Source: Escherichia coli (GTDB lineage Bacteria; Pseudomonadota; Gammaproteobacteria; Enterobacterales; Enterobacteriaceae). Taken from it: a stretch of DNA of 64,000 nucleotides. The stretch lies in the NCBI RefSeq assembly GCF_003790525.1, contig NZ_CP033635.1; one strand, 5' to 3'. Below the pieces are notes generated by a model. That model worked only from the letters and a program-made list of their open reading frames with translations, ran no database searches and was not told the origin of the DNA. The position numbers and the translations under genes are program-made. Positions 49,153 through 49,382 of this stretch are shown piece by piece (the stretch's first letter is position 1; every line of letters begins with the position of its first letter).

Positions 49153-49382
49153 AATTAATTAACGTCATCAGATCCGAAAATAACGAGAATATTTCAGTCT
49201 CTCATCCTGTTGCGCTCCTGTCATGTGCATTGCTTCATATCATCACTGGCGCAAGGAGCGCGCAGGGGGCGGCCAATCGCCGCCGCCCCCTGCACCCCCG
49301 GGCTCTGGCGAACAAAATCGCCGCTGCGCGGTACCCTCGGCTTATCCCTTGCGGCTACCGGGTCGGGCGCGAGGTAACATAT

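What the first reader, a model, noticed from the sequence alone, without database searches (positions are those of the whole stretch)
49258..49300. Perfect 12-bp GC-rich hairpin between yohP and the IS element
GCAGGGGGCGGC-(caatcgcc)-GCCGCCCCCTGC (49262-49293) is a perfect, very stable inverted repeat with no flanking T-run on either strand, so it is not a canonical terminator. It sits about 90 bp from the inferred IS end and may be a REP-like element; some IS110-family members insert beside such palindromes. It also explains the spurious GC-rich ORFs in the track at 49221-49460.
Basis: seen in the sequence. Interest (0 to 1): 0.3.

Follow-up and report, generated by a model that had tools for sequence, protein, structure and literature searches.

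The report
Hairpin inside a known replication-risk repeat
The GC-rich hairpin is real, but it is the core of an already described E. coli repeat (TRIP1, also called RRS) that stalls lagging-strand DNA synthesis beside the replication terminus; here the repeat is cut in two by an insertion sequence that always lands at the same spot in it.

Summary
In detail: there is a perfect 12-bp stem with an 8-nt loop at 49262-49293, no T-run follows it, and dinucleotide shuffles never produce such a stem.

It is not a lone palindrome. The window is E. coli SMS-3-5. The hairpin lies in the left 171 bp of the TRIP1c repeat, which was later renamed RRS-dusC ("replication risk sequence"). The published polymerase-blocking G-quadruplex 20-mer, GGGGGTGCAGGGGGCGGCGG, is the window minus strand 49299-49280. 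That is one hairpin arm plus the adjacent C5 run.

Results added here:
- Across 57 diverged copies the hairpin keeps 99.4% pairing. Four of its 12 pairs show compensatory changes, including in the C-rich arm that has no role in a G4. The whole element has 13 covarying helices.
- The neighbouring IS is ISEc81 (IS1111 type, 1386 bp). Every copy examined sits at the same site, GAGGTAAC(A/G)|TCC(C/T)TGTAA, 86 bp from the hairpin.
- Both RRS copies of SMS-3-5 carry the IS, at the two ends of the known 1.3-1.4 Mb terminus inversion. At least 60 complete genomes have the yohP-IS-lysO junction; none of 5,426 has it without the IS.

Interest is modest.

The parts
49209..49379 (+). Left 171 bp of the TRIP1c / RRS-dusC repeat, on the yohP side.
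   Evidence: 97.8% identical to the K-12 yohP-dusC intergenic region. K-12 TRIP1c is NC_000913.3 2229122-2229394, which contains the K-12 copy of the hairpin.
49210..49264 (.). Helix 1 stem-loop, TTGCGCTCCT ... AGGAGCGCGCA, with a variable loop of about 34 nt.
   Evidence: Covaries across genera: GCGCTCT/AGAGCGC, GCGCTCTCT/AGAGAGCGC, GCGCTCCCT/AGGGAGCGC (helix 1).
49262..49293 (.). The reported perfect 12-bp hairpin with an 8-nt loop (helix 3 of the repeat).
   Evidence: 99.4% of cells paired, and 4 of 12 pairs show changes on both sides across 57 sequences.
49280..49299 (-). Published RRS G-quadruplex-forming 20-mer GGGGGTGCAGGGGGCGGCGG. It consists of two loop bases, one hairpin arm, a single A/T base and the adjacent C5/G5 run.
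   Evidence: Exact match on the minus strand. The sequence and its polymerase-blocking behaviour are from PMC11194060.
49369..49379 (+). Left half of the ISEc81 target, GCGAGGTAACA.
   Evidence: The same flank is found at every IS copy examined. The empty site in K-12 reads GCGAGGTAACATCCCTGTAAAACG.
49380..50765 (-). ISEc81, an IS1111-type insertion sequence of 1386 bp.
   Evidence: Boundaries come from the K-12 empty site. The name comes from a transposase match that differs at only a few residues from the ISEc81 entry in supplementary file 6 of PMC11187229.
49654..50679 (-). ISEc81 transposase, 341 aa (WP_000868863.1, annotated as IS110 family).
49380..49653 (-). 274-bp non-coding region downstream of the transposase gene, the expected seekRNA/bridge-RNA region. 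Positions 49535-49543 carry GAGGTAACA, which can pair with the right target flank TGTTACCTC.
   Evidence: The 9-mer match was reached by 57 of 2000 shuffles. A second guide was not found.
49383..49393 (.). Subterminal inverted repeat of ISEc81 at the right end (ATGGACGCTCC on the plus strand), 3 bp from the IS end.
50748..50758 (.). Subterminal inverted repeat of ISEc81 at the left end (GGAGCGTCCAT on the plus strand), 7 bp from the IS end.
50766..50866 (+). Right portion, about 100 bp, of the TRIP1a / RRS-lysO repeat. It includes the target half-site TCCCTGTAAAACGCGCC (50766-50782) and the hairpin CAGCCCACATCCATGTGGGCTG (50785-50806).
   Evidence: 97.1% identical to the aqpZ-lysO copy and continuous with the lysO flank.
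49069..49152 (+). yohP (27-aa small membrane protein), the left neighbour.
51019..51918 (+). lysO (ybjE), the right neighbour. It was brought next to yohP by the inversion.

Best explanation
The hairpin is the stable core of an RRS ("replication risk sequence", first catalogued as repeat TRIP1).

What is published. E. coli carries two nearly identical inverted GC-rich copies, one beside lysO and one beside dusC, each about 650 kb from dif, flanking the Ter macrodomain. When a fork unwinds an RRS, the strand serving as lagging-strand template folds. This blocks the lagging-strand polymerase and leaves a gap of up to 2 kb that is loaded with SSB and RecA. The gap is proposed to act as a topological relief valve. 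All of this was shown experimentally in K-12, not here.

What is shown here. In the window the folding strand is the minus strand. Its published G4-forming 20-mer is one arm of this hairpin plus the flanking G5 run. The comparative data show that the Watson-Crick hairpin, and 12 further helices of the element, are maintained by compensatory substitutions.

What is inferred. The selected fold includes this hairpin. Whether the hairpin, the G4, or an equilibrium between them is the actual roadblock remains open. The window copy is a hybrid (RRS-dusC left part, RRS-lysO right part) bisected by ISEc81. The hairpin/G4 half is intact and, by my inference from coordinates, still on the lagging-strand template. 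Whether that half alone still triggers gaps is untested.
For: Identity of the element:
- The window is SMS-3-5.
- The left flank is 97.8% identical to K-12 TRIP1c, and the right flank 97.1% identical to the aqpZ-lysO copy.
- TRIP1 coordinates and loci come from PMC10888264. TRIP1 is equated with RRS in PMC11194060.
- The G4 20-mer matches exactly at minus 49299-49280, and also in the K-12 and aqpZ-lysO copies.

Published function:
- Pol I, II and IV are blocked at this site.
- Lagging-strand RecA/SSB gaps form wherever the RRS is placed.
- Deleting or inverting both changes genome supercoiling.
- The C-strand secondary structure also blocks about 66% of encounters.

Selection on the fold:
- Alignment A1 has 57 sequences below 97% identity from Escherichia, Kluyvera, Enterobacter and gut metagenomes.
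- It supports 81 pairs in 13 helices, with 97.1% of cells paired, against 39-44% when partners are slid.
- 23 pairs change on both sides; 0 of 500 shuffles reach this.
- In the hairpin, pair 81/112 is G-C in 21 sequences and A-T in 35. Pairs 85/108, 89/104 and 92/101 also switch on both sides.
- Diverged copies carry a different stem at the same position.
- A-C mismatches on the plus strand (G-T wobble on the minus, G4, strand) outnumber the reverse by 36 to 14 cells, or 17 to 10 pairs.
Against: - The function was demonstrated for intact 222-bp RRS in K-12. Here the element is split by 1.4 kb, so helices 4-6, 8 and 9 cannot form locally. No gap-mapping data exist for this strain.
- The hairpin and the G4 are mutually exclusive folds of the same bases. 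The published strand asymmetry in polymerase blockage favours a G-strand-specific structure over a symmetric hairpin.
- Covariation cannot separate an ssDNA fold from an RNA fold. The wobble asymmetry is weak and not corrected for phylogeny (not significant when counted by pairs).
- Sequences were collected by exact-pattern scans. These fixed helix 13 in the metagenome set and ten of the twelve hairpin pairs in the genome-derived set.
- The lagging-strand assignment for SMS-3-5 is inferred from coordinates, not from mapped ori/dif.
Confidence: 0.85

Rival explanations
1. The element acts as a structured RNA. It would be either a 3'-UTR or independent transcript whose minus strand carries a TwoAYGGAY-like core with two GGA hairpin loops that bind CsrA. 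The GC hairpin would then be a stabilising or protective 3' stem.
For: - The minus strand of intact copies matches Rfam TwoAYGGAY (RF01731, clan CL00106) over the whole model, 1-168, at 30.6-30.9 bits. The E-value is 0.008 when only the 551-bp aqpZ-lysO intergenic region (L004 1900-2450) is searched.
- The loops read CAUGGAUG and ACAGGGAUGU, close to my recollection of the CsrA SELEX consensus RUACARGGAUGU.
- The base before GGA varies freely among copies, giving A-N-GGA.
- TwoAYGGAY has been proposed as a CsrA-binding RNA.
- Li et al. suggest TRIP1 may be transcribed.
- The wobble bias leans to the minus strand.
Against: - The score is below the Rfam gathering score of 43. No such hit appeared at E<=0.1 in a 40-kb scan of five further loci.
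- No sigma-70 promoter or terminator consensus was found in or beside the element.
- Orientation relative to neighbouring genes differs between loci and flips in ST131.
- A DNA-level function has direct experimental support.
- No transcript or CsrA-binding data were found.
Confidence: 0.08
2. The palindrome is a REP-like recognition structure that directs the IS110-family element to insert beside it.
For: - IS copies are always 86 bp from a hairpin of this repeat.
- Relatives such as IS621, ISPa11 and ISPpu9 target REP sequences.
Against: - The insertion point is the loop of a different hairpin (helix 11/12).
- The asmA-yegH copy has a different stem at the palindrome position yet is hit at the same site.
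- IS1111-family elements choose targets by base pairing of a seekRNA with roughly 12 bp around the insertion point. The ISEc81 non-coding region carries GAGGTAACA, which matches the target flank.
- No similarity to REP was found. The REP-derived Rfam models hit elsewhere.
Confidence: 0.03
3. The hairpin is a transcription terminator or an mRNA 3'-end protecting stem for yohP or dusC.
For: - It is a very stable stem in a region between convergent genes, 110 nt after the yohP stop codon.
- REP-type stems are known to protect 3' ends (general knowledge).
Against: - No U-run on either strand.
- The same hairpin occurs after the aqpZ terminator and upstream of lysO.
- It is inverted relative to yohP in ST131.
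- It is conserved as part of a 270-bp unit in multi-copy arrays in other genera.
Confidence: 0.03

Closest known systems
RRS, replication risk sequence (also TRIP1a/TRIP1c). Sources: Rudd 1999; Pham et al. NAR 2023 and 2024; Li et al. Genes 2024.
   Same: It has 97-98% sequence identity to the K-12 copies and lies at the same loci (yohP/dusC and aqpZ/lysO). It contains the exact G4-forming 20-mer. The published SMS-3-5 inversion between TRIP1a and TRIP1c is the one seen in this window.
   Different: This copy is a hybrid of the two RRS and is bisected by ISEc81. None of the four RRS/TRIP1 papers I read or term-searched mentions an IS in the repeat. The literature emphasises a G4; the comparative data here show that the Watson-Crick hairpin and 12 other helices are what covary.
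REP / BIME elements of enterobacteria
   Same: Both are GC-rich extragenic palindromic repeats that can form hairpins or cruciforms and are targets of IS110-family elements (IS621 in E. coli).
   Different: REP units are about 35-40 bp, with hundreds of copies and a different consensus. TRIP1/RRS is 146-273 bp with 1-5 copies at fixed loci. REP-derived Rfam models (naRNA4, ES036) hit neighbouring REPs, not this element.
TwoAYGGAY RNA motif (Rfam RF01731, clan CL00106)
   Same: Both have two adjacent hairpins with A-N-GGA-Y loops enclosed by a long outer helix. The match is end to end on the minus strand.
   Different: The score is 30.6-30.9 bits against a gathering score of 43. The second loop in E. 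coli is AGGGAU, not AYGGAY. There is no evidence that the element is an RNA.
Neisseria gonorrhoeae pilE G4
   Same: It is a bacterial G-rich sequence that causes gap formation during replication. The RRS authors cite it as the only precedent.
   Different: It serves antigenic variation at one locus and has no extended covarying secondary structure, repeat family or terminus-flanking placement.
IS1111-family target-specific elements: ISEc11, ISPa11/ISPpu9 (REP), IS4321/IS5075 (Tn21 inverted repeats), ISKpn4/ISPst6 (attC)
   Same: ISEc81 shares the 11-bp subterminal inverted repeats, the 7-bp and 3-bp terminal extensions, a downstream non-coding region, a single fixed target sequence with no target duplication, and a promoter that would be assembled on the circle junction (TTGCAT-16-TATAAT, read from the sequence).
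   Different: The target is a loop inside the RRS/TRIP1 repeat, which I did not find reported. Only one of the two expected guide segments could be recognised.

Membership tests
TRIP1 / RRS repeat | Sequence homology to K-12 TRIP1a/TRIP1c (146-273 bp, 62-65% G+C). | tested here: met
   97.8% over 228 bp to the K-12 yohP-dusC region. The right part is 97.1% identical to the aqpZ-lysO copy.
TRIP1 / RRS repeat | Carries the G4-forming sequence GGGGGTGCAGGGGGCGGCGG. | tested here: met
   Exact match on the minus strand at 49299-49280.
TRIP1 / RRS repeat | Located beside lysO and dusC, symmetric about dif, with the G4 strand as lagging-strand template. | tested here: inconclusive
   The two SMS-3-5 copies lie at about 911 kb and 2,314 kb, with flanks exchanged by the inversion. 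Preservation of the lagging-strand orientation is inferred from coordinates. ori and dif were not mapped in SMS-3-5.
TRIP1 / RRS repeat | Intact, contiguous 222-bp unit. | tested here: not met
   The unit is interrupted after GAGGTAACA by the 1386-bp ISEc81. The same holds for the second SMS-3-5 copy.
TRIP1 / RRS repeat | Triggers lagging-strand post-replication gaps and blocks DNA polymerases. | not testable with these tools
   Shown for K-12 copies only.
REP / BIME | REP consensus palindrome of about 35-40 bp, in hundreds of copies. | tested here: not met
   The 12-mer occurs only at this hairpin in 64 kb, apart from one near-match with one mismatch. Places matching per genome had a median of 3 and a maximum of 7. 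No REP-type Rfam hit falls on the element.
Intrinsic terminator | GC-rich stem followed by a U/T-run. | tested here: not met
   No T-run on either strand. The scans found no terminator-like site.
TwoAYGGAY RNA (RF01731) | Score at or above the Rfam gathering score (43 bits). | tested here: not met
   30.6-30.9 bits for E. coli copies, and 39.4 bits for a core in a Kluyvera composite element. No hit at E<=0.1 in five further loci.
TwoAYGGAY RNA (RF01731) | Two hairpins with AYGGAY in the terminal loops. | tested here: inconclusive
   Loop 1 is AUGGAU (met). Loop 2 is AGGGAU in E. coli, and ACGGAC/AUGGAC in many metagenome copies.
IS1111 family (for the neighbouring IS) | Subterminal inverted repeats of 11-13 bp with 7-bp and 3-bp extensions; long non-coding region downstream of the transposase gene; DEDD transposase; one specific target. 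| tested here: met
   The 11-bp inverted repeat ATGGACGCTCC sits 7 bp and 3 bp from the ends, and the 3' non-coding region is 274 bp. The transposase matches ISEc81 with only a few substitutions. The insertion point is identical in all 8 insertions examined, spanning several distinct flank combinations. Criteria are from PMC11187229.

The most novel reading that the evidence does not exclude
ISEc81 is a dedicated RRS-targeting insertion sequence. Its RNA-guided insertion into the loop of one RRS hairpin places 1.4-kb inverted repeats at the two terminus-flanking RRS. These IS pairs, rather than the 270-bp TRIP1 repeats as published, would then be the substrate of the recurrent 1.3-1.4 Mb Ter-domain inversion. 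Natural strains with both RRS bisected (SMS-3-5 and at least 60 complete genomes) would show either that the hairpin/G4 half alone suffices for RRS function or that an intact RRS is dispensable. In addition, the compensatory changes in the C-rich arm show that the hairpin, not only a G4, is the structure under selection.
Probability: 0.55. Interest if true: 0.55.

Novelty: already known. Interest (0 to 1): 0.35.

Why it matters
The hairpin itself adds nothing new. It is the core of a published element with an experimentally supported role in replication and chromosome topology. The surrounding observations bear on open questions about RRS.

1. G4 or secondary structure. Comparative data can address which structure is selected. 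Compensatory changes in the arm outside the G4 argue that the hairpin matters.
2. Natural split alleles. Many natural E. coli carry an IS in both RRS, which K-12 genetics calls conditionally essential. These alleles could show which part of the RRS is needed.
3. Substrate of the inversion. The frequent terminus-symmetric inversion attributed to TRIP1 recombination is, in every complete genome checked, accompanied by ISEc81 at the junction. This changes the likely recombination substrate.

Tried and rejected
- Rfam scan of the window around the hairpin gave only a chance-level AgvB hit. Intact copies gave a sub-threshold TwoAYGGAY match, which I did not accept as membership.
- Sigma-70 promoter and terminator scans of the two intact K-12-type loci found nothing conserved. 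A TATAAT-like hexamer in the helix-1 loop has no usable -35 element.
- REP identity was rejected.
- A coding reading of the ORFs at 49210-49460 was rejected because copies differ by single-base indels.
- The idea that TRIP1 derives from the IS non-coding region was rejected. The K-12 repeat has no similarity to the IS interior.
- The search for both seekRNA guides found only one 9-nt match (57 of 2000 shuffles reach this length). The only top-strand match is a 7-mer, CGTTTTA, so no convincing second guide was found.
- Strand assignment from wobble pairs gave 36 against 14 cells but only 17 against 10 pairs, which is suggestive at most.
- My first guess at the SMS-3-5 reciprocal junction (2.255-2.305 Mb) missed. 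It lies at 2.314 Mb.
- I did not build a covariance model. The 300-column element would exceed the calibration limit.
- I did not establish which organisms the Klebsiella-like metagenome copies come from.

Full report
**Observation.** The sequence at 49262-49293 is GCAGGGGGCGGC-caatcgcc-GCCGCCCCCTGC, a perfect 12-bp stem with an 8-nt loop.
- Only four perfect hairpins of at least 12 bp occur in the 64-kb window. None occurred in 30 dinucleotide shuffles.
- Predicted folding energies are far below shuffled controls: RNA -33.5 and -41.0 kcal/mol on the two strands, DNA -17.7, with z-scores from -3.7 to -6.0.
- There is no T-run on either side, and the hairpin ends 86 bp from the IS.

**Context.** The window is the E. 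coli SMS-3-5 chromosome (NC_010498.1, about 897-961 kb, reverse complement).
- The hairpin is present unchanged in the K-12 yohP-dusC intergenic region.
- A megablast of the region showed that about 180 bp around it are repeated, with a median of 3 and up to 7 matching places per genome.
- Further copies lie between aqpZ and lysO and, in a short form with an internal deletion, between putP and efeU.
- Comparison with the K-12 empty site puts the IS inside the repeat...GCGAGGTAACA | IS | TCCCTGTAAAACGCG....
- The left flank is the yohP-dusC copy (97.8%). The right flank is the aqpZ-lysO copy (97.1%), continuous with lysO.

**What the repeat is.**
- It is TRIP1, first catalogued by Rudd in 1999 and surveyed in 6,725 genomes by Li et al. 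2024.
  - The copies are TRIP1a (aqpZ-ybjE/lysO), TRIP1b (putP-ycdN, partial) and TRIP1c (yohI/dusC), plus TRIP1d and TRIP1e.
  - That paper explicitly reports the SMS-3-5 inversion between TRIP1a and TRIP1c.
- The two long copies were independently discovered as "replication risk sequences" (RRS) by Pham, Cox, Goodman and colleagues.
  - They are 222-bp GC-rich inverted repeats about 650 kb either side of dif.
  - They produce focused RecA/SSB peaks on the lagging-strand template and block Pol I, II and IV in vitro.
  - They act wherever they are placed, and lose gap formation when inverted.
  - They cannot both be deleted without a compensating 200-kb amplification.
  - They influence genome-wide supercoiling.
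- The authors assign the block to a G-quadruplex formed by GGGGGTGCAGGGGGCGGCGG.
  - That 20-mer is the window minus strand 49299-49280.
  - It comprises two loop bases, the hairpin arm 49282-49293, one intervening base (49294) and the C5 run 49295-49299.
- A 2026 preprint adds that the complementary strand, which lacks the G4 but has predicted secondary structure, still blocks about 66% of lagging-strand encounters.

**Comparative analysis done here.**
- An exact-pattern scan of species-representative genomes found the hairpin-bearing element in several genera:
  - Escherichia species (2 hits each);
  - Kluyvera (9 hits in one draft assembly, often at contig ends);
  - an Enterobacter (4 hits).
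- A second scan of metagenomes was anchored on a different hairpin of the element, so it was unbiased for the focal stem. It returned many more copies, including tandem arrays.
- From these I built alignment A1: 57 sequences, all below 97% identical.
- The RNAalifold consensus has 81 pairs in 13 helices.
  - 97.1% of cells are paired, against 39-44% when partners are slid by 1-3 columns.
  - 23 pairs change on both sides, and 0 of 500 shuffles reach the observed covariation.
- The focal hairpin is helix 3.
  - 99.4% of cells are paired, and four of its twelve pairs switch between G-C/C-G and A-T on both sides (21 against 35 sequences at the closing pair).
  - More diverged copies carry a different stem at the same position with a similar loop: GCCAGGGTGG/CCACCCTGGC at asmA-yegH and TTAAGGGCGC/GCGCCCTTAA in one metagenome variant.
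- Changes in the C-rich arm are invisible to a G4 on the opposite arm, so they show that Watson-Crick pairing of this hairpin is itself maintained.
- G-runs are also retained on the same strand in the diverged copies, by my reading of the sequences. The data therefore do not argue against a G4.
- Wobble-type exceptions fall more often on the G4 strand (36 against 14 cells; 17 against 10 pairs). This is only suggestive.

**Caveats on the comparative analysis.**
- The pattern scans fixed helix 13 in the metagenome set and ten of the twelve hairpin pairs in the genome-derived set.
- Related sequences are not independent.
- Covariation cannot distinguish an ssDNA fold from an RNA fold.

**The RNA alternative.**
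- The minus strand of intact copies aligns end to end with Rfam TwoAYGGAY, with loops CAUGGAUG and ACAGGGAUGU. The score is 30.6-30.9 bits, under the gathering score of 43, and no such hit appeared at E<=0.1 in five further loci.
- No promoter or terminator consensus is present.
- Orientation relative to neighbouring genes is not conserved. In ST131 the yohP-dusC copy is inverted, in line with the forward and reverse counts in Li et al..
- I keep this as a minor rival.

**The IS.**
- The 1386-bp element at 49380-50765 has 11-bp subterminal inverted repeats (ATGGACGCTCC) placed 7 bp and 3 bp from its ends.
- Its 341-aa transposase is on the minus strand, followed by a 274-bp downstream non-coding region.
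- These are the diagnostic features of the IS1111 family.
- The transposase differs at only a few residues from the ISfinder entry ISEc81.
- Joining its ends would create TTGCAT-16 nt-TATAAT. I read this from the sequence; a junction promoter of this kind is described for ISEc11.
- The IS is in 179 of 5,426 complete E. coli genomes, at 338 places, 1-4 per genome.

**Insertion site of the IS.**
- Every copy whose flanks I read is at the same point, GAGGTAAC(A/G)|TCC(C/T)TGTAA. The copies are:
  - the window;
  - the second SMS-3-5 copy;
  - a simple yohP-IS-dusC insertion;
  - an aqpZ-IS-dusC junction;
  - two asmA-yegH insertions;
  - a metagenome copy.
- This point is the apical loop of helix 11/12.
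- The non-coding region contains GAGGTAACA, able to pair with the right target flank. A 9-mer match was reached by 57 of 2000 shuffles, and the second guide was not identified.
- The IS therefore targets the repeat, not the palindrome.

**The inversion.**
- SMS-3-5 carries the reciprocal junction aqpZ-ISEc81-dusC at 2,313.6-2,316.3 kb. The two IS copies are in inverted orientation and differ at 9 of 1386 positions.
- The K-12 equivalents of the endpoints (about 914 and 2,229 kb) are symmetric about dif, so the inversion should preserve strand orientation relative to the forks. This is inference.
- A query made of the hybrid junction with the IS removed found no full-length match in any of 5,426 genomes.
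- The junction with the IS is present at 100% coverage in all 60 top-ranked genomes listed.
- Term searches for IS110, "insertion sequence" and "transposase" found no mention of an IS in the body text of Li et al.. The corresponding searches of the 2023 and 2026 RRS papers found none in connection with the repeat. The parts of the 2024 RRS paper I read mention none.
- The likely substrate of this recurrent inversion is the pair of inverted 1.4-kb IS copies. A recombinase-mediated event cannot be excluded.

**Verdict.** The feature is already known (TRIP1c/RRS-dusC) and has a published mechanism. Three things may be new:
- the covariation evidence for the hairpin;
- the fixed ISEc81 target inside the RRS;
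- the IS at both ends of the terminus inversion in strains whose two RRS are both split.

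Noticed in passing
window 49380-50765; L170 4794-6179 (NC_010498.1 about 2,313.8-2,315.2 kb): SMS-3-5 has ISEc81 in both RRS/TRIP1 copies at the identical site and in inverted orientation, bounding the roughly 1.40-Mb terminus-symmetric inversion. At least 60 complete genomes share the yohP-IS-lysO junction, and 0 of 5,426 have it without the IS. The published account attributes the inversion to TRIP1 alone.
   Followed up: yes
L005 1962-2348 (ST131 strain 2019_APHA, dusC-yohP intergenic region): The yohP-dusC copy is inverted relative to its flanking genes compared with K-12 and SMS-3-5. It resembles the aqpZ-lysO copy even a little beyond the repeat, and its hairpin carries two compensated pair changes (GCAGGGGGAGGA/TCCTCCCCCTGC). 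About 1,500 of the 5,436 records with a match gave only an 80-90% best match to the window's yohP-repeat-IS query; the sampled rows in that band covered only the repeat part at about 88%, as in this ST131 locus. If the flanks keep their K-12 orientation, the G4 strand would be on the leading-strand template there.
   Followed up: partly
L165 and L166 1226-3061 (asmA-yegH intergenic region): This is a diverged 'type B' copy of the repeat. It has a different left stem-loop (CCGTTCAC...GGTGAACG) and a different hairpin stem, but the same ISEc81 target, and the IS is inserted in it. The locus is not among the five TRIP1 loci listed by Li et al.
   Followed up: partly
L037, L036, L014, L034 (Kluyvera); L022-L025 (Enterobacter sp. 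ENT03): In these genera the 270-bp unit is the left part of a composite element of about 700 bp. It is followed by tandem repeats of about 35 bp and a second, inverted, diverged module. That module has its own GGA-loop hairpins (TwoAYGGAY core, 39.4 bits in L037), a G6/C6 hairpin and a terminal CCGTTCAC/GTGAACGG inverted repeat. Copies often lie at contig ends, which suggests many copies per genome.
   Followed up: partly
L050 (human gut metagenome contig), about 1844-3453: Three RRS-like units lie in tandem at 654-bp spacing, alternating with clusters of REP-like sequences. This subfamily has the hairpin ACAGGGGGCGGC/GCCGCCCCCTGT and was the most common in the metagenome scan. Its host organism was not determined.
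   Followed up: no
L089 and L103 (metagenome contigs): These are deletion variants that fuse the end of the aqpZ coding sequence directly to the inside of the repeat. One endpoint is in the hairpin loop (cgtgat|tcgccgccgcc) and the other just before the IS target (attatcg|cgcgaggtaacat). They could be real deletions at the structured DNA or assembly artefacts.
   Followed up: no
window 50759-50765 joined to 49380-49420 (IS ends): Joining the ISEc81 right and left ends, as in a circular intermediate, would create a near-consensus promoter, TTGCAT-16 nt-TATAAT, pointing into the transposase gene. A junction promoter of this kind has been described for ISEc11.
   Followed up: no
window 11162-11197, 31750-31780, 45093-45126: These are the three other perfect hairpins of at least 12 bp in the window: AAAGCCGAAATCATTT-ATAT-AAATGATTTCGGCTTT (16 bp), TTGGCGGTCATG...CATGACCGCCAA and GCTGCATTGCTG...CAGCAATGCAGC. 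They were not examined.
   Followed up: no
window 47409-48845 versus L001 1-1296: mdtQ (yohG) is annotated as an intact gene in SMS-3-5 but as a frameshifted pseudogene in the K-12 derivative.
   Followed up: no
alignment A1, columns 203-207 (window equivalent 49379/50766-50770): On the minus strand the base before the invariant GGA in the second hairpin loop varies freely (A-N-GGA: AGGGA, ACGGA, AUGGA, AAGGA). This is the pattern of CsrA/RsmA binding loops, and it is also the exact ISEc81 insertion point.
   Followed up: partly
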